Shown here one piece after another: positions 1,372-11,019 of a DNA stretch of 64,000 nt; the first letter of the stretch is position 1, and each line of letters opens with the position of its first letter. The notes under the pieces are model-generated. The model worked only from the letters and a program-made list of their open reading frames with translations. It made no database searches and had not been told where the DNA came from. Source of the stretch: Escherichia phage mobillu; the sequence record MN850622.1. The stretch is one strand, 5' to 3'. Both the position numbers and the translations under genes were made by a program.

Positions 1372-1411
1372 TATAATGCCAAGGACGGCCAACTAATTAA
1401 ATGAGAGAAAT

Positions 1412-2047
1412 ATGAAAACTACACCAATCACTATCGCTATTGACGCAATCGTAAAACAAGCTTCATCTCTTGCCACTATGGCTAAAGTAATTAGTCAAAA
1501 CCCTGCTCGGTATAATGCTATTCTTGAAACTCTTCGTCGCCCTGGACTGAGTAATTATGAAAGTCGTGTAATTATTACAGGTGTTGGTAAGAACGCTAAT
1601 ATCGCAACTAAAGCTTCCGAGACTTTTGCTTCACTAGGTATTCCTAGCATGTATTTGAACACTGGGCATTATTCTCATGGTGACGCAGGATTTATTGCAC
1701 CTAATGATGTATTAGTTCACATCAGCCGTTCTGGTAAGACTGAAGAAATGATAGGTGTTGCTAAACATCTTCGTATGATTCGTCCTCAGGTTAAACAGAT
1801 TCTGTTACATTGTAACCCTGACATTCCACAAGAATACGAAGCCCTTTTTGATTACTCTTTCTGTACAGGCATCGCGGTAGAGGTTGATGAGAATTCTCTG
1901 GCTCCGACCATGTCCACTACATTGTTGTTAGCGCTTATCGATACGTTTGCTATCAACCTTTCGTCTGAACGTGGATTTACCTCTAATGATTTCCTTAAGT
2001 TCCATCCAGGCGGTGCACTAGGTGCCATGTTACGAGGCGAACAATGA
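1412..2047 (+). CDS. SIS-domain sugar-phosphate isomerase (arabinose-5-phosphate isomerase KdsD/GutQ-like, SIS domain only)
   Basis: SIS signatures VIITGVGKNANIATKASETFASLG and HISRSGKTEE; 211 aa; sits in the T4 imm slot between 43 and 42. Confidence 0.6.
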   Translation: MKTTPITIAIDAIVKQASSLATMAKVISQNPARYNAILETLRRPGLSNYESRVIITGVGKNANIATKASETFASLGIPSMYLNTGHYSHGDAGFIAPNDVLVHISRSGKTEEMIGVAKHLRMIRPQVKQILLHCNPDIPQEYEALFDYSFCTGIAVEVDENSLAPTMSTTLLLALIDTFAINLSSERGFTSNDFLKFHPGGALGAMLRGEQ

Positions 2048-2187
2048 AAGCAATAACAATAGGACTTTTACTATTGATGCTTGTCATGACTATCTACTGG
2101 AGCTTAACGGCTCCGGTAATGATTCCAACACTTGTAATTGGATGGATTATGATTGGTCTACAGGCAAAGTATGAATGCTTTAACTAG
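2044..2187 (+). CDS. small hydrophobic protein (47 aa, two predicted TM segments)
   Basis: ATGA overlap with upstream stop (translational coupling); strongly hydrophobic; not in ORF track (<60 aa). Confidence 0.3.
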   Translation: MKAITIGLLLLMLVMTIYWSLTAPVMIPTLVIGWIMIGLQAKYECFN

Positions 2188-2228
2188 AATAGTGTACAAT
2201 ACTCCTACTTACCAATGAGGACTTCAAC

Positions 2229-3914
2229 ATGAAAAAAGCTGTTATTCTTGGTGCTGGATTGGCAACTCGTTTGTATCCAATAACGCATCATATTCCTAAG
2301 GTGCTTGTTAACTATAAACAAGACACTATTCTGAGCAATTTGTATACAATTTATTCTGACCTTGGCGCAGATGAAATTATTGTAGTAGTTCATTCAAAAT
2401 TTGCTGAAACTGTTCGAGCTTATTGTGAGCAAGAAGGGTTCAATGTGACTATTCGTACAGTTGATGAAGCGTATGGTTCTGCTTATGCTCTTGCTAAATT
2501 ACACAAAGATTTAGACGGCCATAATGTAATTGTTAACTGGTGTGATATTATTCCCGATTTTGGTTCATGGTCTTGGAATGTTAACGCAATCTATGTTAAG
2601 GGTGACGAATGTCGATATAATTTCGACGGTGAAAATATCACTAACGTAGGTTCAACAGGTGGTAATGTTGTAGGAATTTATCAGTTCAAAGACTGGGAAT
2701 TCTATATGGGTTCTACTGATGAGGAAATTCATGAATACTGCAAAGGACGTGATTTCGTAGAATTCCTTTACGGCAGCGCATTCAATAAATCAGAGCTTAT
2801 GAATATAATTGATTTAGGTGATATGCCTAAACTTGAAAAGGCTCATGAAGTTCGTGAACTTAATCGTAGTTTTAATGCAGTTGAAATTGGTGAAGAAACT
2901 GTAACTAAATTCGCATTAACCGAACAGGGACGAGCTCTTCAGAAAGATGAGATTTCGTGGTATTTGAAAGTGAAATCAGATTCAGTTCCTCAGTTAGTTT
3001 CTGTTAATGAAAATAACTTTGAAATGGAACGCATTAAAGGTAAGCCGGCATTTGAATATATTAAATCAAAATCAAGTCTTGCTCGTCCACAAATTATTGA
3101 TGCAATTTTAGATGCACTGAAATTCAGCACAGACACTTATTTTGTAAGTCCTGAAACTGTTCGTCGTGATTTCACTAAAGAATTCTATACGAAAGTTATT
3201 GATCGTTGTGAAAGCATTCAACCATTGATTGATTCATTTGGTAAAATCACACATGTGAACTACACTAAGATTGGACGTCTGAAGCCAATGCTGAAACAAG
3301 CTTTAGAACACCTTATTCGTTATCATAACCGTTCTCAGGGACAGTACTCTGTTATTCATGGTGACCCGAACTTCAGTAATACTATGATTACTGATAACGG
3401 CGAAGTCAAGTTTATCGACCCTCGTGGATATTTTGGCGAAACCAAGATTTACGGGCCAAAATTGTATGATGAAGCTAAAGTGCTTTATGCTGTTTCAGGT
3501 TATGATGAATTCAATGCTAATCCGACCTGGGGACAGTTTACTATTGATGAAACAACTTGTAATGTGACTATTAACATCAATCCATTAGTTTACAAATATG
3601 GAAAGATGAGTTCGTTTAACGAGTATCATCATTTGGCTGTAGCAATTATCTGGATTGCATTAGGTGGTTATTTCAAGAATAATCCACTTAAAGCGGTAGC
3701 CGCATATTATAAAGGTATGGAACTTCTGACTAAGCAATTACGTAACATGGGCCGTGTACTTCAAGACGGCTCTATTAGTTATGACGTAGCAGAACCTGTA
3801 ACGGCTACTCTGATTACAAAAAATCCTGGTAAATGGGTACTAACTGATAAAGAAACTGGTGTTTCCTATCGTCCAATCGGTGGCGATATCACTCATCAAT
3901 GGGAACGAATCTAA
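2229..3914 (+). CDS. bifunctional sugar-phosphate nucleotidyltransferase / phosphotransferase (APH or choline-kinase-like kinase domain)
   Basis: N-terminus MKKAVILGAGLATRLYPIT has the GxGxRL motif of sugar-1-P nucleotidyltransferases; C-terminal HGDPNFSNTMI plus IDPRG resemble the Brenner motif and DxG of APH/choline-kinase fold. Confidence 0.6.
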   Translation: MKKAVILGAGLATRLYPITHHIPKVLVNYKQDTILSNLYTIYSDLGADEIIVVVHSKFAETVRAYCEQEGFNVTIRTVDEAYGSAYALAKLHKDLDGHNVIVNWCDIIPDFGSWSWNVNAIYVKGDECRYNFDGENITNVGSTGGNVVGIYQFKDWEFYMGSTDEEIHEYCKGRDFVEFLYGSAFNKSELMNIIDLGDMPKLEKAHEVRELNRSFNAVEIGEETVTKFALTEQGRALQKDEISWYLKVKSDSVPQLVSVNENNFEMERIKGKPAFEYIKSKSSLARPQIIDAILDALKFSTDTYFVSPETVRRDFTKEFYTKVIDRCESIQPLIDSFGKITHVNYTKIGRLKPMLKQALEHLIRYHNRSQGQYSVIHGDPNFSNTMITDNGEVKFIDPRGYFGETKIYGPKLYDEAKVLYAVSGYDEFNANPTWGQFTIDETTCNVTININPLVYKYGKMSSFNEYHHLAVAIIWIALGGYFKNNPLKAVAAYYKGMELLTKQLRNMGRVLQDGSISYDVAEPVTATLITKNPGKWVLTDKETGVSYRPIGGDITHQWERI

Positions 3915-4300
3915 TGCACCGTGTAGAAAACATGCTTAATCTTTGTTTTGATGTCGATGATTGTATAACAGAGTGGAATAACAATCGTGATTACGTGAAC
4001 TTCAAACCAGACGTCGAAATGGTGTCTGCCATTAATGCCCTGTATGATGCAGGGCATACCATAACGCTTTACACTGCTCGCGGTATGAAGTCAGTAGGTC
4101 CTGGTCGTATAGCAATTGACATTCTCCCAAGTCTGATTCAGAACTTGGCAAACATTGGCTTGAAGTACCATAATTTGCTAACACATAAACCAGTATATGA
4201 TTGGATTATCGACGACAAAGCTATGCGTCCTGACGAATTCAAAGCTCTTATGAATAAAGGCGAATTCGAAACATTTAAATCATATAAACCAAATCTATAA
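3914..4300 (+). CDS. HAD-superfamily-like small phosphatase
   Basis: N-terminal FDVDDCIT (DxD-type motif I) and C-terminal WIIDDKA (motif IV-like); TAATG overlap with upstream gene; alternative in-frame start at 3899. Confidence 0.45.
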   Translation: MHRVENMLNLCFDVDDCITEWNNNRDYVNFKPDVEMVSAINALYDAGHTITLYTARGMKSVGPGRIAIDILPSLIQNLANIGLKYHNLLTHKPVYDWIIDDKAMRPDEFKALMNKGEFETFKSYKPNL

Positions 4301-4357
4301 TAATTTAAGTAAGACCTGCAAAAACCATCGCATCAATTAACGTGAGATGCAAAAAAA

Positions 4358-5518
4358 ATGAATACTTTTAAAATCGGAACGAATTTTGATTTAGCTCTTC
4401 TTGATAAAATCGTAGAGCTCAATAAAACTTATCCTAATAGCTTGATAAACGAAGTATACGGCTCTACAAGAGAAATGGCTTTTGTAGCAGCCAGACCTGA
4501 TTTTAGGCTTCCTGACGTTGACAAAAAGATGTTAGAAGATTACGTTAAACGTTGTAACGAATTAGGTATTTGCTTTAACTATACACTCAACACGATAAAT
4601 CCTGGTTCAAAAAGAGAACTAGTTGAGTGGAAGAAGAAAGCTATTCAGGATTATGTTCAGTATCTTTGGTCAATAGGCGTATGGCGTATTACTATCGCTA
4701 ACCCTGTTGTTATGGAAATTGTTCGTGAAGTCAATAAAGACATTGAGATTGAAGTTTCAACAATTCTACATGTCGATGCTGTAACTCAAATCAAATACTT
4801 GCATGACCAGTATAATATCAAAAAGGTCTGCTGTGGAATTCATAAGAACCGTTCAGTTTCTTTCCTGAAGCGTGCAGCAGAGTTTTGCAATAAGAACAAT
4901 ATAATATTTGAAGTTCTTGTAAATGAGTTCTGTTCTAATGCTGGTAAAGGGTATACAACACATTGTAGCTATCGTGACTCTTGCTATATTTTCCATAGTA
5001 CTGATGTTACAGCTGATGATGCTAAATCCTTAAACGGATATCCTATGCAGCACTGTATTAAAGCTCGTGATACAGACCCATTTAACTGGTTGAGAACTCG
5101 TTTTGTTCGTCCTCAAGATTTGAAACTTTATAATGATATTGGTATCACTCAATTCAAAGTTTCAGGACGTACAGGTAGCACAGACTACATTTTGAAAGTT
5201 CTTGAAGCATACGCTTCTGAAAAGTTTGAAGGTAATTTGTTAGAACTGTGGAAGCCTTTAGAGACTATTTTCACTCTTGAAAATGAGACCGAGTTTTCAC
5301 ATACGGTAAATATTGAAACCTCTTTGTTAGATGGCTTTTTAGAAAAAAGGTGGTTCAGACATCCAGATTTCGATTGTGCTAATGAAATCTGCGGGACGAC
5401 GTGTACATATTGTGAAAGATATTATAAACGTCAGTTATCTAAAAATGGGTTATCAGAAAATTCTATATCTATTATTGATATAACTAACTCTGATGACGCT
5501 TTGAGGTACCCAGAATGA
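4358..5518 (+). CDS. hypothetical protein, possible peptidase-U32-like fold
   Basis: 386-aa ORF with RBS; Cys-containing segment EFCSNAGKGYTTHCSYRDSC loosely resembles the U32 family signature; assignment tentative. Confidence 0.35.
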   Translation: MNTFKIGTNFDLALLDKIVELNKTYPNSLINEVYGSTREMAFVAARPDFRLPDVDKKMLEDYVKRCNELGICFNYTLNTINPGSKRELVEWKKKAIQDYVQYLWSIGVWRITIANPVVMEIVREVNKDIEIEVSTILHVDAVTQIKYLHDQYNIKKVCCGIHKNRSVSFLKRAAEFCNKNNIIFEVLVNEFCSNAGKGYTTHCSYRDSCYIFHSTDVTADDAKSLNGYPMQHCIKARDTDPFNWLRTRFVRPQDLKLYNDIGITQFKVSGRTGSTDYILKVLEAYASEKFEGNLLELWKPLETIFTLENETEFSHTVNIETSLLDGFLEKRWFRHPDFDCANEICGTTCTYCERYYKRQLSKNGLSENSISIIDITNSDDALRYPE

Positions 5519-5754
5519 TTTCTAGAAAAACTTTTAACCACCAACTTAATGAAGAGATTTTGACTATGAAAATTAACAGCAACGAACAAATTCTTAAAAA
5601 GGCCCTTATGGGCCTGTTTGAAACTAAAGCGGCTAAAGTGATTAAAGGACCTGTTCAATTGGAATACTACGCTGATGCATTTCTTCATAGTGTTCTTGGA
5701 AGTATCGATGCTGAAGCTTTACGTTATATCAACATTGTCAAGAAATTCAAATAA
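5515..5754 (+). CDS. hypothetical protein (79 aa)
   Basis: ATGA overlap with upstream gene; no recognisable motif. Confidence 0.45.
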   Translation: MISRKTFNHQLNEEILTMKINSNEQILKKALMGLFETKAAKVIKGPVQLEYYADAFLHSVLGSIDAEALRYINIVKKFK

Positions 5755-5777
5755 GCTTTACGAATTGAGTATATAAT
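5753..5777 (+). promoter_or_regulatory. middle-type promoter candidate (MotA-box-like aGCTTTA plus TATAAT)
   Basis: aaGCTTTA at 5753-5760, about 11 bp spacer, TATAAT at 5772-5777, upstream of gene 42. Confidence 0.4.
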
Positions 5778-5796
5778 AAATTGTATTGAGGTAAAC

Positions 5797-6513
5797 ATGG
5801 GAAAACATAACACAATGAAATATATCAAAGCCGCAGATTTTCAAACCGCATTTAAAGCAGTCAATCGTGAAATTTTAGAAAACCCGGAATTCGTAACTGA
5901 TTCTCGTATTGGACGTTGTAATGAAATTGGGTCTATGACAGTAGTTGTTGACACTCCATCATCATTCAAAATGACCGACCCACGTATTAACCGCATCTCT
6001 TATGAATACGCCGAAGATTTCTGGAAGTTTATGATTTCTGGTGGTACCAACGCAGAAGAAGCGTTTAAGGCATATCCTAATGTCGCTAAATTTATTTCTA
6101 AACCAAAATCAGATGTTTTGCCGGCGAACTTCAACACTTTCTACGGTCCTCGCATTGCGGCCCAATTACCAGCTCTTCTAAAAGAACTTAAAGAGAAGCC
6201 TAACTCCCGAAGAGTTGTGTTCCAAATTCTAGAAAGTTCTGATCAGGCTTTGCTTGATTCAGACGAAACGCTTGAATATCCATGTACTGACTCAGTGACT
6301 TATTATATTCGTGATGGTAAGCTTTATACCCACTGTCATATGCGTTCTCAGAACTGTGCTGTTGTTATGCAGTTGGATTTTTATCTCCAAGGAAAATTAC
6401 TTCATTATATCGCTAACGAATGTGGTGTAGAAGTTGGTGATTATACTCATACCATGGTAAGTGCCCATGTGTTTGAACGTGATTTTGATTATGTTAAAGG
6501 ATTCCTTGACTAA
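5797..6513 (+). CDS. 42: dCMP hydroxymethylase (thymidylate-synthase fold)
   Basis: Matches remembered T4 gp42 blocks: PNSRRVVFQI, YPCTDSVTYYIRDGKLYTHCHMRSQN, VSAHVFERDF; position between uvsX and 43 as in T4. Confidence 0.85.
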   Translation: MGKHNTMKYIKAADFQTAFKAVNREILENPEFVTDSRIGRCNEIGSMTVVVDTPSSFKMTDPRINRISYEYAEDFWKFMISGGTNAEEAFKAYPNVAKFISKPKSDVLPANFNTFYGPRIAAQLPALLKELKEKPNSRRVVFQILESSDQALLDSDETLEYPCTDSVTYYIRDGKLYTHCHMRSQNCAVVMQLDFYLQGKLLHYIANECGVEVGDYTHTMVSAHVFERDFDYVKGFLD

Positions 6514-7412
6514 TGGCTATTTTCCGCGTACCAATCTTGAGTATGCGGTCTTATGAAACTGGACAGTATGCTATCCTTAAGGATGGCAACTTCCAACTTC
6601 ATTTGCACCGTGCTAATCCAGGTGATGTGATTACATATCCACGTAATGCATCTGATATTAAAGAATGCGAACGTCTTTTCCCAGAATTTAAGTTTGTTCC
6701 ATTATGGTATAAAGATAACGCGTATAACACTCGTAAATATTTCTGGTCTGAAAATGAATTTGTGGTTGATTCATTAATTGCTTATTATGATTGTGATTTT
6801 CTAATCACAGATATCACCGGATATGACGGTGCTTTTGATGTAGAATTCAATTTCAATATCACTGCAGACCCTAATAAACCACGTTTTTATATTGACGAAT
6901 TCTTAAAAACCGACATGTTGTCGGTTAATCGTTCACTTCAAACTACTGTGTTGAACGAACGTCAAAAAGAAGTGCTGGTTAACGCAGGTGCAGATGGTAA
7001 TAAGATTATCGTAACGCAGAAAGTTATACGTCCTTCCATCATGCAGCGTCTTGTAGGTGATTTGGCTCCTATTCATCTAGATGGTATTTTTCATCCATTT
7101 CGAATTAGCGACCCGTGCTATCGTTTTGAACAAGTGGTTGAATGTGCAATTCAATTAGGCCAACCGCTTTATATAACCGATCCAAATAATAGCTTCGACA
7201 GAAATAAGTATCCTGAAGAAGCGCTGATTCGAATTTTTAAACCAACTAAAACTGAGTACTATCAAATTCTTAAAGGACGTCCGAAAATTCAATATTTCGA
7301 AAATCCTGAAGAAGTATTCCATCCAGGTCTTGGTGAGTTCATCTACTTTAATGCTTTAATTTCTTCGCCGTATAATATACCTAAATATGAAGATGTCGTA
7401 ATCGAGGAATAA
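6513..7412 (+). CDS. hypothetical protein (299 aa) occupying the T4 beta-glucosyltransferase slot
   Basis: TAATG overlap with gene 42; no recognisable motif; positional replacement of beta-gt. Confidence 0.5.
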   Translation: MAIFRVPILSMRSYETGQYAILKDGNFQLHLHRANPGDVITYPRNASDIKECERLFPEFKFVPLWYKDNAYNTRKYFWSENEFVVDSLIAYYDCDFLITDITGYDGAFDVEFNFNITADPNKPRFYIDEFLKTDMLSVNRSLQTTVLNERQKEVLVNAGADGNKIIVTQKVIRPSIMQRLVGDLAPIHLDGIFHPFRISDPCYRFEQVVECAIQLGQPLYITDPNNSFDRNKYPEEALIRIFKPTKTEYYQILKGRPKIQYFENPEEVFHPGLGEFIYFNALISSPYNIPKYEDVVIEE

Positions 7413-7413
7413 A

Positions 7414-7962
7414 ATGGCTAAAATTATTTTAGTAGATGGCCCAGATAATGCTGGTAAAACAACTTTCATTAATGACATAATGGAAATTAGTGAAAGATAT
7501 GTAAAGATTGATTTCCCTAAACGAACAGTTGATGGGCGTTTCGATGTTAAGTCTCGAAATGAAGTTGGCTGCTTCGAAACGATGTTGAATTATTTAGACC
7601 CTACTAAGATTTATCTGTTAGACCGTGGATATATTAGTAACTGGGTTTATGGACGTATTCGACAAGATGCGGACTCGGTTCTTGACGTTTATGAACAGGA
7701 TTATGTTCGTCTTTGCCAAAACCATGATGTGTTCACAATTATTTTAACACGTAACGAAATGACTGAAAGTTTTGAAGACGACCTTATTACTTTGTCTTCA
7801 TTCGGTTTTAATACAGTCATTTCACATTTTGAAGAGTTTGCAATTCATAACAAAATCCAAACGTATCAATTACTTAATCATGATGGTGCTAACAAAGTTA
7901 TAGGATTTAATGCAAGCGAACGTAATTATTTGATTACAGAAATTATCAAATGGGCTCGTTAA
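7414..7962 (+). CDS. P-loop kinase, thymidylate-kinase-like (dNMP/nucleoside kinase fold)
   Basis: P-loop IILVDGPDNAGKTTF and DR-motif LLDRGYISNWVYG resemble Tmk family. Confidence 0.5.
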   Translation: MAKIILVDGPDNAGKTTFINDIMEISERYVKIDFPKRTVDGRFDVKSRNEVGCFETMLNYLDPTKIYLLDRGYISNWVYGRIRQDADSVLDVYEQDYVRLCQNHDVFTIILTRNEMTESFEDDLITLSSFGFNTVISHFEEFAIHNKIQTYQLLNHDGANKVIGFNASERNYLITEIIKWAR

Positions 7963-7982
7963 GAGCCATTTAAAGTTTTAAA

Positions 7983-8008
7983 TGCTGTATAACCCTTAGT
8001 ATATAATC
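7983..8008 (+). promoter_or_regulatory. middle promoter candidate for uvsX
   Basis: MotA-box-like aaaTGCTGTA at 7981-7989, 13 bp spacer, TATAAT at 8003-8008. Confidence 0.45.
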
Positions 8009-8060: not shown

Positions 8061-9233
8061 ATGTCTGATTTAAAATCTCGTTTGATTAAAGCTTCTACTT
8101 CTAAAATGACTGCAGACTTGACTAAGTCTAAGCTGTTTAATAATCGCGATGAAGTCCCTACTCGTATTCCAATGTTGAATATTGCACTAGGTGGTGCACT
8201 GAATGCCGGGTTGCAATCAGGCTTGACTATTTTTGCTGCTCCTTCTAAACACTTTAAAACGTTGTTTGGACTGACCATGGTTGCAGCATATATGAAGAAA
8301 TATAAAGATGCAATCTGTTTGTTTTATGACTCAGAATTCGGTGCTTCGGAATCTTATTTTCGTTCAATGGGTGTTGATTTAGACCGTGTAGTTCATACTC
8401 CGATTCAATCGGTCGAACAACTTAAGGTTGATATGACTAATCAGCTTGACGCGATTGAACGCGGTGATAAAGTTATTATCTTTATTGACTCGATTGGTAA
8501 TACTGCATCTAAGAAAGAAACCGAAGATGCATTGAACGAGAAAGTTGTAGGTGATATGTCTCGTGCTAAGGCACTTAAATCTCTGTTCCGCATTGTGACC
8601 CCGTATCTGACTATTAAAGATATTCCGTGTGTTGCAATTAACCATACAGCAATGGAAATCGGCGGATTGTATCCTAAAGAGATTATGGGCGGTGGTACAG
8701 GTATTCTTTATTCTGCCAACACGGTATTTTTTATCTCTAAACGTCAGGTTAAAGAAGGTACAGAATTGACCGGTTATGACTTCACGTTGAAAGCAGAAAA
8801 ATCTCGCACAGTTAAAGAGAAATCTACTTTCCCGATCACGGTTAATTTTGATGGCGGTATTGACCCATTCAGTGGCTTGTTAGAAATGGCAACTGAAATT
8901 GGTTTTGTAGTTAAGCCTAAAGCTGGTTGGTATGCTCGTGAATTCCTTGACGAAGAAACAGGTGAAATGATTCGTGAAGAAAAATCATGGCGTGCTAAAG
9001 CTACTGATTGTGTAGAATTCTGGGGACCTTTGTTTAAACACAAACCTTTCCGAGATGCAATTGAAACTAAATATAAACTAGGTGCTATCTCTTCTATTAA
9101 AGAAGTTGATGACGCTGTTAACGACCTTATTAATTGCAAAGCAACAACTAAAGTTCCGGTTAAAACTTCTGATGCTCCATCTGCAGCAGATATAGAAAAC
9201 GACCTTGACGAAATGGAAGATTTCGATGAATAA
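8061..9233 (+). CDS. uvsX: UvsX recombinase (RecA-like)
   Basis: Near-identical to remembered T4 UvsX (MSDLKSRLIKASTSK..., Walker A region, C-terminal acidic tail). Confidence 0.97.
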   Translation: MSDLKSRLIKASTSKMTADLTKSKLFNNRDEVPTRIPMLNIALGGALNAGLQSGLTIFAAPSKHFKTLFGLTMVAAYMKKYKDAICLFYDSEFGASESYFRSMGVDLDRVVHTPIQSVEQLKVDMTNQLDAIERGDKVIIFIDSIGNTASKKETEDALNEKVVGDMSRAKALKSLFRIVTPYLTIKDIPCVAINHTAMEIGGLYPKEIMGGGTGILYSANTVFFISKRQVKEGTELTGYDFTLKAEKSRTVKEKSTFPITVNFDGGIDPFSGLLEMATEIGFVVKPKAGWYAREFLDEETGEMIREEKSWRAKATDCVEFWGPLFKHKPFRDAIETKYKLGAISSIKEVDDAVNDLINCKATTKVPVKTSDAPSAADIENDLDEMEDFDE

Positions 9234-9576: not shown

Positions 9577-11019
9577 GTGGTAGAAATTATTTTGTCTCAT
9601 CTAGTATATGACCAGGCTTATTTTTCTAAGGTCTGGCCTTATATGGATTCTGAGTATTTTGAGCGTGGACCGGCAAAAAATGTCTTTAAAATTATAAAGA
9701 GCCACGTTAACGAATATAATGCAATGCCATCTATCAATGCGTTAAAGGTGGCTTTAGATAACAGTTCTTTAACTGAAGCCGAATATAAAGGAACTTCAGA
9801 CCTAATTGAAAAATTGGCTGATACTCCTGAAGACCATGAATGGTTGGTTAAAGAAACTGAGAAATATGTCCAGCAAAAAGCGATGTATAATGCTACATCC
9901 AAAATCATTGAGATTCAGTCTAATGCTGAACTACCTCCAGAACAACGTAACAAGAAAATGCCTGACGTAGGAGCTATTCCTGATATTATGCGTCAAGCAC
10001 TTTCAATTTCGTTTGATAGTTATGTTGGTCATGACTGGATGGAAGACTACGAAGCACGCTGGCTTTCTTATCTAAATAAAGCACGTAAGGTCCCGTTCAA
10101 ATTAAACATTTTGAATAAAATCACTAAAGGTGGTGCTGAAACAGGTACACTAAACGTTTTAATGGCCGGTGTTAACGTTGGTAAATCTTTAGGCCTTTGT
10201 TCACTTGCTGCAGATTATCTTCAAACAGGTCATAACGTTCTTTATATTTCTATGGAAATGGCTGAAGAAGTTTGTGCTAAGCGTATAGATGCAAACATGC
10301 TTGACGTATCACTCGATGATATCGATGATGGTAACGTATCTTATGCTGAATATAAAGCCAAGATGGAAAAATGGCGTTCAAAAACAACATTAGGACGTTT
10401 AGTAGTTAAACAGTATCCCACTGGTGGAGCTAATGCTAATACATTTCGTGCATTGCTTAATGAGTTAAAACTTAAGAAGAACTTTGTGCCATCTGTAATC
10501 ATGGTTGATTACTTAGGTATTTGTGGGTCTTGTCGTATCAGAGTTTACACTGAAAATAGCTACACATTAGTTAAAGCTATCGCAGAAGAACTTCGTGCAT
10601 TAGCAGTAGAATCTGAAACAGTTCTATGGACTGCAGCTCAAGTAGGACGGGCAGCATGGGATGCTTCGGATATGAACATGAGCGATATTGCAGAATCAGC
10701 AGGTTTACCAGCAACGGCAGATTTCATGTTGGCCGTAATTGAAACCGAAGAACTTGCACAAGCTGAACAACAACTTATCAAACAAATCAAATCACGATAC
10801 GGCGATAAGAATAAGTGGAATAAATTCCTGATGGGTGTACGTAAAGGCAACCAGAAATGGATTGAGATTGAGCAAGAAGGCATGAACACACCTAACACAG
10901 TAAATGAAAACGCAGGTGCTCAGATGCGTCAGGCAGAGGTGAATCGTACGGAACGCGTAGGTAAAGCCAAAGCAACACGTGCTGACCTAGATAGCTTAGC
11001 CAATGAGTTAAAATTTTAA
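9577..11019 (+). CDS. 41: gp41 replicative DNA helicase (DnaB-like)
   Basis: Matches remembered T4 gp41 (MVEIILSHL..., Walker A GVNVGKSLG); GTG start preceded by AAGGAG. Confidence 0.95.
   Translation: MVEIILSHLVYDQAYFSKVWPYMDSEYFERGPAKNVFKIIKSHVNEYNAMPSINALKVALDNSSLTEAEYKGTSDLIEKLADTPEDHEWLVKETEKYVQQKAMYNATSKIIEIQSNAELPPEQRNKKMPDVGAIPDIMRQALSISFDSYVGHDWMEDYEARWLSYLNKARKVPFKLNILNKITKGGAETGTLNVLMAGVNVGKSLGLCSLAADYLQTGHNVLYISMEMAEEVCAKRIDANMLDVSLDDIDDGNVSYAEYKAKMEKWRSKTTLGRLVVKQYPTGGANANTFRALLNELKLKKNFVPSVIMVDYLGICGSCRIRVYTENSYTLVKAIAEELRALAVESETVLWTAAQVGRAAWDASDMNMSDIAESAGLPATADFMLAVIETEELAQAEQQLIKQIKSRYGDKNKWNKFLMGVRKGNQKWIEIEQEGMNTPNTVNENAGAQMRQAEVNRTERVGKAKATRADLDSLANELKF

What the first reader, a model, noticed from the sequence alone, without database searches (positions are those of the whole stretch)
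2229..3914. Single polypeptide fusing a sugar-1-P nucleotidyltransferase to an APH/choline-kinase-like kinase
The N-terminus has the GxGxRL motif (LGAGLATRL) and the C-terminal half has HGDPNFSN and IDPRG kinase motifs. A kinase-nucleotidyltransferase fusion would channel a free sugar to an NDP-sugar in two steps. The closest general analogy is the LicA/LicC-type kinase plus cytidylyltransferase logic. Substrate and nucleotide specificity are unknown and could define a new activated pentose donor.
Basis: inference. Interest (0 to 1): 0.65.

Follow-up and report, generated by a model that had tools for sequence, protein, structure and literature searches.

The report
Known phage arabinose-activating bifunctional enzyme
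This gene is a real fusion of a sugar kinase and a sugar-nucleotide-forming enzyme, but it is the already described enzyme that RB69-like phages use to make the activated arabinose that decorates their DNA, so it is confirmed but not new.

Summary
Window 2229-3914 (+) is one intact 561-aa ORF. Its N-terminal half is a sugar-1-phosphate nucleotidyltransferase domain (GxGxR...PK signature; folds like MurU, RmlA, LicC, HddC). Its C-terminal half is an APH/choline-kinase-like domain with every catalytic residue invariant across homologues. The window is an RB69-like Mosigvirus. The protein differs at 4 residues from frameshift-corrected RB69 ORF53_52c (gp52:53). It lies in the known DNA-arabinosylation cluster: arabinose-5-P isomerase, this gene, HAD phosphatase, U32 protein, ThyA-like 5-hydroxy-dCMP synthase, arabinosyltransferase. 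Published work already describes the two-domain enzyme: Thomas 2018, and NAR 2026, which cites He 2026 and Mahler 2025. The HY126 counterpart, AfhE, is reported to be a D-arabinose-5-phosphate kinase plus UDP-D-arabinose pyrophosphorylase, with a separate phosphatase (AfhF) acting between the two steps. The "free sugar in two steps" route is probably wrong. The best pathway analogy is ADP-heptose synthesis (GmhA/HldE/GmhB), with LicA/LicC and AmgK/MurU as fold relatives. Verdict: already known, low interest. One side lead is worth recording: the neighbouring U32 protein could be a prephenate-dependent, oxygen-independent cytosine hydroxylase.

The parts
2229..3914 (+). Whole gene: bifunctional nucleotidyltransferase/kinase, 561 aa; orthologue of RB69 ORF53_52c (gp52:53), Bas46 bas46_0146 and DLP3 gp82; reported counterpart of HY126 AfhE
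   Evidence: intact ORF; 4 aa differences from frameshift-corrected RB69; Bas46 annotation; 373 phage records
2229..2843 (+). N-terminal sugar-1-phosphate nucleotidyltransferase (pyrophosphorylase) domain, about aa 1-205; invariant G10, R14, K24, D106, D195, G197, D198
   Evidence: Pfam NTP_transferase 8.8e-10; PDB LicC 2.1e-5; profile against PDB, HddC 1.2e-13; Foldseek MurU/RmlA/LicC about 1e-8; invariant columns
2247..2273 (+). LGAGLATRL: the G-x-G-x-R-L nucleotide-binding signature of sugar nucleotidyltransferases
   Evidence: G10 and R14 invariant
2859..3749 (+). APH/choline-kinase-like (eukaryotic-like kinase fold) domain, about aa 211-507; invariant K227, E241, G378, D379, N384, D397, R399
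3357..3380 (+). HGDPNFSN: catalytic loop (HxDxxxxN, Brenner motif) of the kinase domain
   Evidence: G378, D379 and N384 invariant, H377 at least 90%
3414..3428 (+). IDPRG: metal-binding Asp (DFG equivalent) followed by the family-specific invariant P398-R399-G400
3750..3911 (+). C-terminal tail of about 55 aa (small beta elements), present only in T4-like phage homologues and missing from the shorter (about 520-545 aa) relatives; function unknown
   Evidence: alignment columns 701-773; lower pLDDT of 79-89
1412..2047 (+). SIS-domain arabinose-5-phosphate isomerase (KpsF/GutQ/KdsD-like); supplies Ara-5-P from ribulose-5-P
   Evidence: Pfam SIS; NCBIfam KpsF/KdsD 1e-31 / 4e-30, below the curated cut-offs; phrog_5670
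3899..4300 (+). Small HAD-like phosphatase (RB69 gp51 / AfhF counterpart). It overlaps the end of the NT-kinase gene; an internal ATG at 3914 forms a TAATG stop/start overlap, suggesting translational coupling
   Evidence: NCBIfam TIGR01689 capsule biosynthesis phosphatase 4.3e-13, below cut-off; sequence at 3890-3920; RB69p051/p052 share one base; role from PMC13326640
5797..6513 (+). Thymidylate-synthase-like enzyme; orthologue of RB69 gp48, shown experimentally to make 5-hydroxy-dCMP (not hydroxymethyl-dCMP)
   Evidence: Pfam Thymidylat_synt 2.3e-15; synteny with RB69p048; PMC13326640
6513..7412 (+). Counterpart of RB69 gp46:47, the predicted DNA arabinosyltransferase 1 that consumes the NDP-arabinose
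   Evidence: same position as RB69p046+047; phrog_3891; assignment from PMC13326640; no Pfam hit here

Best explanation
The ORF encodes the bifunctional sugar-activating enzyme of the arabinosyl-5-hydroxycytosine DNA-hypermodification pathway of RB69-like (Mosigvirus) phages. The proposed route has five steps. (1) The upstream SIS isomerase (1412-2047) converts host ribulose-5-P to D-arabinose-5-P. (2) The C-terminal APH/choline-kinase-like domain of this protein uses ATP to phosphorylate the anomeric C1-OH, giving arabinofuranose-1,5-bisphosphate. (3) The overlapping downstream HAD-like phosphatase (3899-4300) removes the 5-phosphate. (4) The N-terminal nucleotidyltransferase domain condenses Araf-1-P with UTP to give UDP-D-arabinofuranose plus PPi. 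(5) Phage GT-B arabinosyltransferases transfer arabinose onto 5-hydroxycytosine in DNA, which blocks restriction and CRISPR nucleases. Shown here: the architecture, both folds, conservation of the catalytic residues, the gene neighbourhood and near-identity to RB69. Taken from the literature: the identity of the sugar, the order of steps and UDP as the carrier. Inferred: that this orthologue behaves like HY126 AfhE.
Against: No enzymology exists for this exact protein or for RB69's. The AfhE biochemistry (He et al. 2026) could not be read directly, and the HY126 sequence could not be retrieved, so homology to AfhE rests on the statement in PMC13326640. Table 1 of that same paper still lists the alternative order (phosphatase makes free arabinose, kinase makes Ara-1-P). 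The window protein itself does not reach any Pfam kinase-family cut-off. The nucleotide specificity (UDP) is not derivable from the sequence analyses done here.
Confidence: 0.8

Rival explanations
1. Salvage-type order, essentially the first reader's model. The HAD phosphatase first makes free D-arabinose from Ara-5-P. The kinase domain then phosphorylates C1 of the free sugar, and the NT domain makes NDP-arabinose. This copies the MupP/AmgK/MurU route to UDP-MurNAc.
For: The families match that pathway: MurU is among the top structural hits for the N-terminal half (4y7u, 4y7t). AmgK is an anomeric sugar kinase (PMC5371407), which from my own knowledge is of the APH type. MupP is a HAD phosphatase acting before the kinase (PMC5371407). 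Table 1 of PMC13326640 lists exactly this order for RB69 gp51 and the gp52:53 C-terminal half. The structural relatives include kinases I know to act on unphosphorylated sugars (NahK, maltokinase, glucosamine kinase).
Against: The text of PMC13326640, citing experiments on HY126 AfhE/AfhF, states that the kinase acts on Araf-5-P and that the phosphatase acts on the 1,5-bisphosphate. The DLP3 phosphatase counterpart resembles GmhB, a bisphosphate 7-phosphatase. I speculate that the invariant family-specific basic residues in the kinase domain (R213, R326, R399, K417) could bind a phosphate on the substrate.
Confidence: 0.14
2. The protein is a GT-A-type glycosyltransferase fused to a phosphotransferase, and it transfers the sugar to cytosine or DNA directly. 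This was suggested for Thanatos TH1_060 and by the old CDD annotation of RB69 ORF053c.
For: There is a CDD 'glycosyltransferase family A' label (PMC6024577; PMC12838424). Nucleotidyltransferases and GT-A enzymes share a Rossmann-like fold.
Against: The GxGxR...PK signature and all top sequence and structure hits are nucleotidyltransferases, not glycosyltransferases. Only 1 of 43 homologues has a weak Glyco_tranf_2_4 hit. ORF53_52c scored poorly against the phage glycosyltransferase HMMs (PMC6024577). TH1_060 did not transfer xylose to DNA or nucleotides. Separate GT-B arabinosyltransferases are assigned in the cluster.
Confidence: 0.03
3. It is a GlmU-like bifunctional enzyme or a mannose-1-P guanylyltransferase, as several GenBank records annotate it.
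For: Record annotations read 'bifunctional protein GlmU', 'GlmU' and 'mannose-1-phosphate guanyltransferase'. There are weak NCBIfam GlmU hits confined to aa 3-106.
Against: All GlmU and guanylyltransferase scores are far below the curated cut-offs, for example 22 bits against 367-505. No left-handed beta-helix acetyltransferase domain is present; the C-terminal half is a kinase fold.
Confidence: 0.01

Closest known systems
RB69 ORF53_52c / gp52:53, DLP3 gp82, HY126 AfhE (bifunctional D-arabinose-5-P kinase / UDP-D-arabinose pyrophosphorylase of phages with arabinosylated 5-hydroxycytosine)
   Same: Same length (561 aa). It differs at 4 residues from corrected RB69. It has the same gene cluster and order and the same N-terminal NT plus C-terminal kinase architecture. 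It even gives the same top structural hits as published for RB69: 4y7t and 1jyk for the N-terminal half, 3ham for the C-terminal half.
   Different: Nothing of substance. It is a strain variant from another Mosigvirus isolate. Biochemistry has been reported only for the HY126 enzyme.
ADP-heptose pathway GmhA / HldE / GmhB (E. coli LPS core; established knowledge, Kneidinger et al. 2002)
   Same: The pathway logic is identical. A SIS isomerase makes a sugar phosphate. A bifunctional kinase/nucleotidyltransferase phosphorylates the anomeric carbon to give a bisphosphate. A separate HAD phosphatase removes the distal phosphate. The second domain of the bifunctional enzyme then makes the NDP-sugar.
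   Different: The two domains are not homologous to HldE's. From my own knowledge, HldE has a PfkB/ribokinase-type kinase and a cytidylyltransferase-like adenylyltransferase. Here the kinase is APH/choline-kinase-like and the NT is RmlA/MurU-like. The sugar is a pentofuranose, the carrier is UDP, and the acceptor is DNA rather than LPS.
MupP / AmgK / MurU anabolic MurNAc recycling (Pseudomonas; PMC5371407)
   Same: MurU-type NT and a HAD phosphatase, plus what I know to be an APH-type anomeric kinase (AmgK). The product is a UDP-sugar.
   Different: The enzymes are separate proteins. The phosphatase acts first, so the kinase sees a free sugar. The sugar is a hexosamine derivative, and there is no isomerase step.
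   Different: They are separate proteins. The substrate is choline, not a sugar. The carrier is CDP. There is no isomerase or phosphatase step, and identity is only 12-20%.
FKP-type L-fucokinase/GDP-fucose pyrophosphorylase and the Leishmania arabino/fucokinase-pyrophosphorylase (from my own knowledge; not tested here)
   Same: A single polypeptide with an N-terminal pyrophosphorylase and a C-terminal anomeric kinase that makes an NDP-sugar; the Leishmania enzyme makes GDP-D-arabinopyranose.
   Different: The kinase is of the GHMP family rather than APH-like. It acts on free sugar, the carrier is GDP, and it serves a salvage role.

Membership tests
Sugar-1-phosphate nucleotidyltransferase (Pfam NTP_transferase PF00483; RmlA/GlmU-NTD/MurU/LicC/HddC) | Score above Pfam's gathering threshold | tested here: met
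   39 bits against 21.2, aa 3-99; 36 of 43 homologues also match
Sugar-1-phosphate nucleotidyltransferase (Pfam NTP_transferase PF00483; RmlA/GlmU-NTD/MurU/LicC/HddC) | N-terminal G-x-G-x-R-L signature followed by the P-K lysine | tested here: met
   LGAGLATRL at aa 7-15 and PK at aa 23-24; G10, R14 and K24 invariant in 43 homologues; aligned to the same motif in LicC and GMPPB
Sugar-1-phosphate nucleotidyltransferase (Pfam NTP_transferase PF00483; RmlA/GlmU-NTD/MurU/LicC/HddC) | Rossmann-like alpha/beta nucleotidyltransferase fold over the whole domain | tested here: met
   AF2 pLDDT 93.7; Foldseek probability 1.00 and TM (target) 0.62-0.69 to MurU, LicC and B. anthracis RmlA
Sugar-1-phosphate nucleotidyltransferase (Pfam NTP_transferase PF00483; RmlA/GlmU-NTD/MurU/LicC/HddC) | Conserved acidic residues for Mg2+ and sugar-phosphate binding | tested here: inconclusive
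   D106, D195 and D198 are invariant. Their equivalence to the catalytic Asp residues of RmlA or MurU was not checked by structural superposition, because no coordinates were available.
APH / choline-kinase-like kinases (Pfam APH PF01636, protein-kinase-like clan) | Bilobal eukaryotic-like kinase fold | tested here: met
APH / choline-kinase-like kinases (Pfam APH PF01636, protein-kinase-like clan) | Catalytic loop H-x-D-x-x-x-x-N and downstream metal-binding Asp | tested here: met
   HGDPNFSN at aa 377-384 and IDP at aa 396-398; G378, D379, N384 and D397 invariant, H377 at least 90%
APH / choline-kinase-like kinases (Pfam APH PF01636, protein-kinase-like clan) | ATP-anchoring Lys (beta3) paired with Glu (alphaC) | tested here: met
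   K227 lies in strand 224-229 and E241 in helix 232-247 of the model, and both are invariant. The assignment is by position in the fold, not by superposition.
APH / choline-kinase-like kinases (Pfam APH PF01636, protein-kinase-like clan) | Sequence score above a curated Pfam kinase-family threshold | tested here: not met
   The window protein has only sub-threshold hits: Fructosamin_kin 17.1 against 22.4, EcKL 16.1 against 22, RIO1 16.1 against 22, and no APH hit. However, 18 of 43 homologues match APH, best 6.1e-10. It is therefore a divergent superfamily member rather than a member of a curated family.
AfhE-type bifunctional Ara-5-P kinase / UDP-Ara pyrophosphorylase (phage 5-arabinosyl-hydroxycytosine pathway) | N-terminal NT plus C-terminal APH-like kinase in one polypeptide of about 550-565 aa | tested here: met
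   described in the same way for RB69 gp52:53 and DLP3 gp82 in PMC13326640
AfhE-type bifunctional Ara-5-P kinase / UDP-Ara pyrophosphorylase (phage 5-arabinosyl-hydroxycytosine pathway) | Encoded with an Ara-5-P isomerase, a HAD phosphatase, a ThyA-like 5hodCMP synthase and an arabinosyltransferase | tested here: met
   Gene order 1412-7962 is colinear with Bas46 and RB69 and largely so with LC53, which has an extra endonuclease gene
AfhE-type bifunctional Ara-5-P kinase / UDP-Ara pyrophosphorylase (phage 5-arabinosyl-hydroxycytosine pathway) | Orthology to a phage whose DNA is shown to carry arabinosylated 5-hydroxycytosine | tested here: met
   4 aa differences from RB69; 98.2% DNA identity to Bas46 over the cluster. 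RB69, Bas46 and NicPhage DNA chemistry is in PMC13326640 and PMC13390438.
AfhE-type bifunctional Ara-5-P kinase / UDP-Ara pyrophosphorylase (phage 5-arabinosyl-hydroxycytosine pathway) | Direct sequence homology to HY126 AfhE, and the two enzyme activities | not testable with these tools
   He et al. 2026 and Mahler et al. 2025 are not held. The HY126 sequence was not retrievable.
HldE (bifunctional heptose-7-P kinase / heptose-1-P adenylyltransferase) | PfkB/ribokinase-type kinase domain and cytidylyltransferase-like (HIGH-motif) transferase domain | tested here: not met
   No PfkB or CTP_transf_like hits were found in Pfam or NCBIfam, and the folds are APH-like and RmlA-like. It works like HldE but is not a member.

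The most novel reading that the evidence does not exclude
The Mosigvirus enzyme might differ mechanistically from the characterised HY126 AfhE. It could act on free arabinose, as in the AmgK/MurU order. It could use a different nucleotide. The phage-specific tail of about 55 aa (aa 508-561) could dock the overlapping-gene phosphatase, forming a channelled kinase-phosphatase-transferase complex. None of this is excluded, because no enzymology exists for this orthologue and the primary AfhE paper could not be read.
Probability: 0.1. Interest if true: 0.3.

Novelty: already known. Interest (0 to 1): 0.15.

Why it matters
The enzyme makes the activated arabinose that RB69-like phages attach to 5-hydroxycytosine in their DNA. 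That hypermodification shields them from restriction enzymes and CRISPR nucleases and exposes them to type IV systems. It matters for phage therapy, phage engineering and enzymatic synthesis of UDP-arabinofuranose. The gene, its two-domain nature and its role have already been reported, so this window adds only another near-identical copy. The practical value of this check is twofold. It corrects misleading database annotations for the gene ('GlmU', 'hypothetical protein', 'mannose-1-phosphate guanyltransferase'; the neighbouring phosphatase is labelled 'phosphoheptose isomerase'). It also points to the uncharacterised U32 gene next door.

Tried and rejected
1. Reading the primary biochemistry (He et al. 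2026, Nat Chem Biol; Mahler et al. 2025, Cell Host Microbe): neither is held. No supplements are held for the NAR paper. The AfhE facts are therefore second-hand, via PMC13326640.
2. Retrieving HY126: only a taxonomy entry exists, unclassified Caudoviricetes, and no other paper mentions it.
3. Single-sequence and profile searches of PDB sequences gave no significant kinase hit; the best was RIO2 at E of about 0.06. The kinase half therefore had to be tested by structure.
4. Foldseek with the full-length model listed only nucleotidyltransferases in the top 50. A separate C-terminal model (aa 205-561) was needed.
5. The GlmU and guanylyltransferase annotations were rejected: scores fall far below the cut-offs and there is no acetyltransferase domain.
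6. The glycosyltransferase reading was rejected (see rival explanations).
7. Side lead: the 79-aa ORF at 5515-5754 was tested as a chorismate mutase. It has no CM_2 hit and no similarity to the LC53 CM. The U32 protein has no PDB sequence match.
8. No tRNAs are present in the window.
Full report
**1. What is in the sequence.**
Window 2229-3914 (+) is one uninterrupted ORF (ATG...TAA) of 561 codons.
- LGAGLATRL at aa 7-15 (nt 2247-2273)
- HGDPNFSN at aa 377-384 (nt 3357-3380)
- IDPRG at aa 396-400 (nt 3414-3428)

The window is a T4-like phage. The ORF lies between the end of a family-B DNA polymerase gene (16-1371) and uvsX (8061-9233) and the gp41-type helicase (9577-11019). Megablast of 1400-8000 finds 151 phage records covering at least 80% of it. 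The 25 listed, nearly all Escherichia/Shigella Mosigvirus isolates (JK45, APCEc01, Bas46 'ChristianSchoenbein' and others), are 98.0-98.7% identical.

**2. Identity with a described gene.**
Aligning the ORF to RB69 (NC_004928, RB69p053+p052) gives 98.2% DNA identity, with a single extra C in the RB69 record. Removing that base leaves 4 amino-acid differences in 561. The extra C is the sequencing error that Thomas et al. (2018) corrected. They showed that RB69 ORF053c and ORF052c are one 561-residue protein, 'ORF53_52c', expressed it as a roughly 64-kDa band, and proposed it together with the SIS protein ORF055c as candidates for UDP-arabinose synthesis (PMC6024577). Bas46 annotates the orthologue as 'putative enzyme involved in UDP-arabinose biosynthesis'.

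**3. Independent test of the two halves.**

*N-terminal half.*
- Pfam NTP_transferase scores 39 bits against a cut-off of 21.2, over aa 3-99.
- The best single-sequence PDB hit is S. pneumoniae LicC (1jyk, 2.1e-5).
- With a 43-sequence profile the best PDB hit is HddC, a heptose-1-P guanylyltransferase (1.2e-13), followed by LicC, GDP-mannose pyrophosphorylases and RmlA.

*Alignment.* 43 homologues with 29-75% identity were aligned.
- Invariant in the N-terminal half: G10, R14, K24, D106, D195, G197, D198.
- Invariant in the C-terminal half: K227, E241, G378, D379, N384, D397, P398, R399, G400.
- These include the ATP lysine, the alphaC glutamate, the HxDxxxxN catalytic loop and the metal-binding Asp of eukaryotic-like kinases.

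*Structure.*
- AlphaFold2 on this alignment gives pLDDT 93.7 and pTM 0.90.
- The full model's top Foldseek hits are MurU, RmlA, LicC, HddC, GalU and GMPPB (E of about 1e-8, probability 1.00).
- Because these swamped the list, I modelled aa 205-561 alone (pLDDT 93.7).
- Foldseek on that model gives APH(2'')-IIa 3ham (1.5e-7), then ethanolamine and choline kinases, macrolide kinases and LicA.
- From my own knowledge, maltokinase, MTR kinase and NahK phosphorylate the anomeric C1-OH of a sugar, and MTR kinase does so on a 5-substituted pentofuranose.

*Sequence-family membership of the kinase half.* The window protein itself stays below every Pfam kinase cut-off. However, 18 of 43 homologues hit Pfam APH, best 6.1e-10. 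PHROGs also has a stand-alone kinase family that aligns to aa 211-517.

The N-terminal half has the nucleotidyltransferase fold, and the C-terminal half has all the catalytic kinase residues.

**4. Context.**
The gene order is:
- SIS arabinose-5-P isomerase (1412-2047; KpsF/KdsD-like, 1e-31 / 4e-30, below NCBIfam's curated cut-offs)
- a 47-aa hydrophobic ORF (2044-2187)
- this gene (2229-3914)
- a 133-aa phosphatase (3899-4300; TIGR01689 capsule-biosynthesis phosphatase, 4.3e-13, also below cut-off)
- a U32-family protein (4358-5518)
- a 79-aa ORF (5515-5754)
- a thymidylate-synthase homologue (5797-6513)
- a 299-aa protein (6513-7412)
- a thymidylate-kinase-like protein (7414-7962)

. The order is colinear with RB69 and Bas46 and largely so with Serratia phage LC53, which carries an extra endonuclease gene. 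The phosphatase gene overlaps the 3' end of the target gene. An internal ATG forms a TAATG stop/start overlap, and RB69p051 and p052 share one base. This suggests translational coupling.

The fusion is widespread. tblastn finds 373 phage records, 363 of them covering at least 80% of the protein, from Escherichia, Acinetobacter, Klebsiella, Vibrio, Serratia and other phages. The large protein database also contains 890-955-aa proteins that join HAD, SIS, NT and kinase domains in one chain. One of these lies in a giant-virus-like contig. This is Rosetta-stone evidence that the four activities, encoded separately in 1412-4300, belong to one pathway.

**5. What the literature says it does.**
NAR 2026 (PMC13326640) shows that RB69 and Acinetobacter phage DLP3 DNA carries poly-arabinosylated 5-hydroxycytosine, not hydroxymethylcytosine. 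It shows that the ThyA homologue (RB69 gp48) makes 5-hydroxy-dCMP. It also models RB69 gp52:53 as an N-terminal nucleotidyltransferase (hits 4y7t, 1jyk) plus a C-terminal kinase (hit 3ham), the same hits I obtained.

Citing He et al. 2026 (Nat Chem Biol) and Mahler et al. 2025 (Cell Host Microbe), that paper states the following. [quoted passage not shown] AfhF is a Mg2+-dependent phosphatase converting Araf-1,5-P2 to Araf-1-P. RB69 gp52:53 and gp51 are their counterparts. I could not read those two primary papers.

Genetics in Shewanella phage Thanatos show that the 54%-identical homologue TH1_060 is essential for propagation. No activity was found for it in assays with xylose-1-P and five NTPs (PMC12838424; identity). 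A Mosigvirus from the Durham collection (NicPhage, also a 98.1% hit to this window) carries mono- and di-arabinosylated dC (PMC13390438).

**6. Mechanism.**
Best-supported route (confidence about 0.8):
1. Ribulose-5-P is converted to Ara-5-P by the isomerase (1412-2047).
2. Ara-5-P is converted to Araf-1,5-P2 by the C-terminal kinase domain.
3. Araf-1,5-P2 is converted to Araf-1-P by the phosphatase (3899-4300).
4. Araf-1-P is converted to UDP-Araf by the N-terminal NT domain.
5. GT-B arabinosyltransferases transfer arabinose to 5hoC in DNA.

Shown here: the architecture, the folds, the catalytic residues, the neighbourhood and the orthology to RB69. From the literature: the sugar, the order of steps and the carrier. 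Inferred: that this orthologue behaves like AfhE.

The main rival (about 0.14) is the order used by MupP/AmgK/MurU, in which the phosphatase acts first and the kinase acts on free sugar (PMC5371407).

**7. Comparison with known systems.**
By membership, the N-terminal half is a bona fide PF00483 nucleotidyltransferase. The C-terminal half is a divergent member of the APH/choline-kinase superfamily, established by fold, motifs and transitive homology rather than by its own Pfam score.

By pathway logic, the closest analogue is ADP-heptose synthesis (GmhA isomerase, bifunctional HldE, GmhB phosphatase; established knowledge). Neither domain is homologous to HldE's.

**8. Verdict.**
The feature is a near-identical copy of an already described and, in a related phage, biochemically characterised enzyme. 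Novelty: already known. Interest: low (0.15).

**9. Side observation.**
The U32-family gene next door (4358-5518) is labelled only 'sugar or heterocycle reductase' in the NAR paper. That paper does not mention prephenate, chorismate, RlhA or TrhP.

U32 proteins include:
- RlhA, which makes ho5C in 23S rRNA
- TrhP, which makes ho5U in tRNA
- UbiU/UbiV

These are prephenate-dependent hydroxylases; oxygen independence is stated explicitly for the anaerobic ubiquinone (UbiU/UbiV) pathway (PMC5727448, PMC6599085, PMC10990095). Serratia phage LC53 encodes a genuine type II chorismate mutase, which makes prephenate, directly after its U32 gene (CM_2, 1.7e-11).

An anaerobic route to 5-hydroxycytosine, complementing the O2-dependent ThyA-like synthase, is therefore a testable idea. 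I could not establish whether it has been published.

Noticed in passing
window 4358-5518 (+); L003:7681-9191 (Serratia phage LC53): The U32-family protein in the arabinosylation cluster may be a prephenate-dependent, O2-independent C5 hydroxylase, like RlhA (ho5C in rRNA), TrhP or UbiU/V. In phage LC53 the next gene is a true chorismate mutase type II (CM_2, 1.7e-11), which makes prephenate. The NAR 2026 paper calls RB69 gp50 only a 'sugar or heterocycle reductase' and does not mention prephenate. This could be an anaerobic route to 5-hydroxycytosine.
   Followed up: partly
window 5515-5754 (+): A 79-aa ORF (phrog_8601, unknown function) overlaps the end of the U32 gene. It sits where LC53 has its chorismate mutase, but it has no CM_2 hit and no similarity to the LC53 protein.
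   Followed up: yes
P0085, P0088, P0089, P0091, P0092, P0095, P0109; locus L004:8001-10781: Proteins of 890-955 aa fuse HAD phosphatase, SIS isomerase, nucleotidyltransferase and kinase in one chain. One is on a 103-kb contig next to MutS-HNH, RNA polymerase Rpb2 and RNA_pol_N genes, which is a giant-virus-like context. Forms of about 790 aa exist too; of the two I scanned, one has a weak, sub-threshold C-terminal mannose-6-P-isomerase (cupin) hit.
   Followed up: partly
window 3750-3911 (+), aa 508-561 of the target protein: A C-terminal tail of about 55 aa (TKNPGKWVLTDKETG...QWERI) is conserved only in T4-like phage homologues and absent from the shorter relatives. Its function is unknown; it might mediate a partner contact.
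   Followed up: no
window 3899-4300 (+) and 3912-3916: The phosphatase gene overlaps the NT-kinase gene by 16 nt, or as a TAATG stop/start using the internal ATG as annotated in RB69. Many GenBank records and PHROG 1238 call this HAD-like phosphatase 'phosphoheptose isomerase', which looks like a propagated misannotation.
   Followed up: partly
window 2044-2187 (+): A conserved 47-aa hydrophobic (probably transmembrane) ORF (phrog_3610) lies between the isomerase and the NT-kinase genes. It is also annotated in Bas46, and LC53 has a same-length ORF at the same position annotated as having transmembrane segment(s). Its role in a cytoplasmic sugar pathway is unexplained.
   Followed up: no
window 5797-6513 (+): This gene is annotated in many records as dCMP hydroxymethylase or thymidylate synthase. 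According to PMC13326640 the RB69 orthologue (gp48) is a flavin/O2-dependent 5-hydroxy-dCMP synthase, so the database names are outdated.
   Followed up: partly
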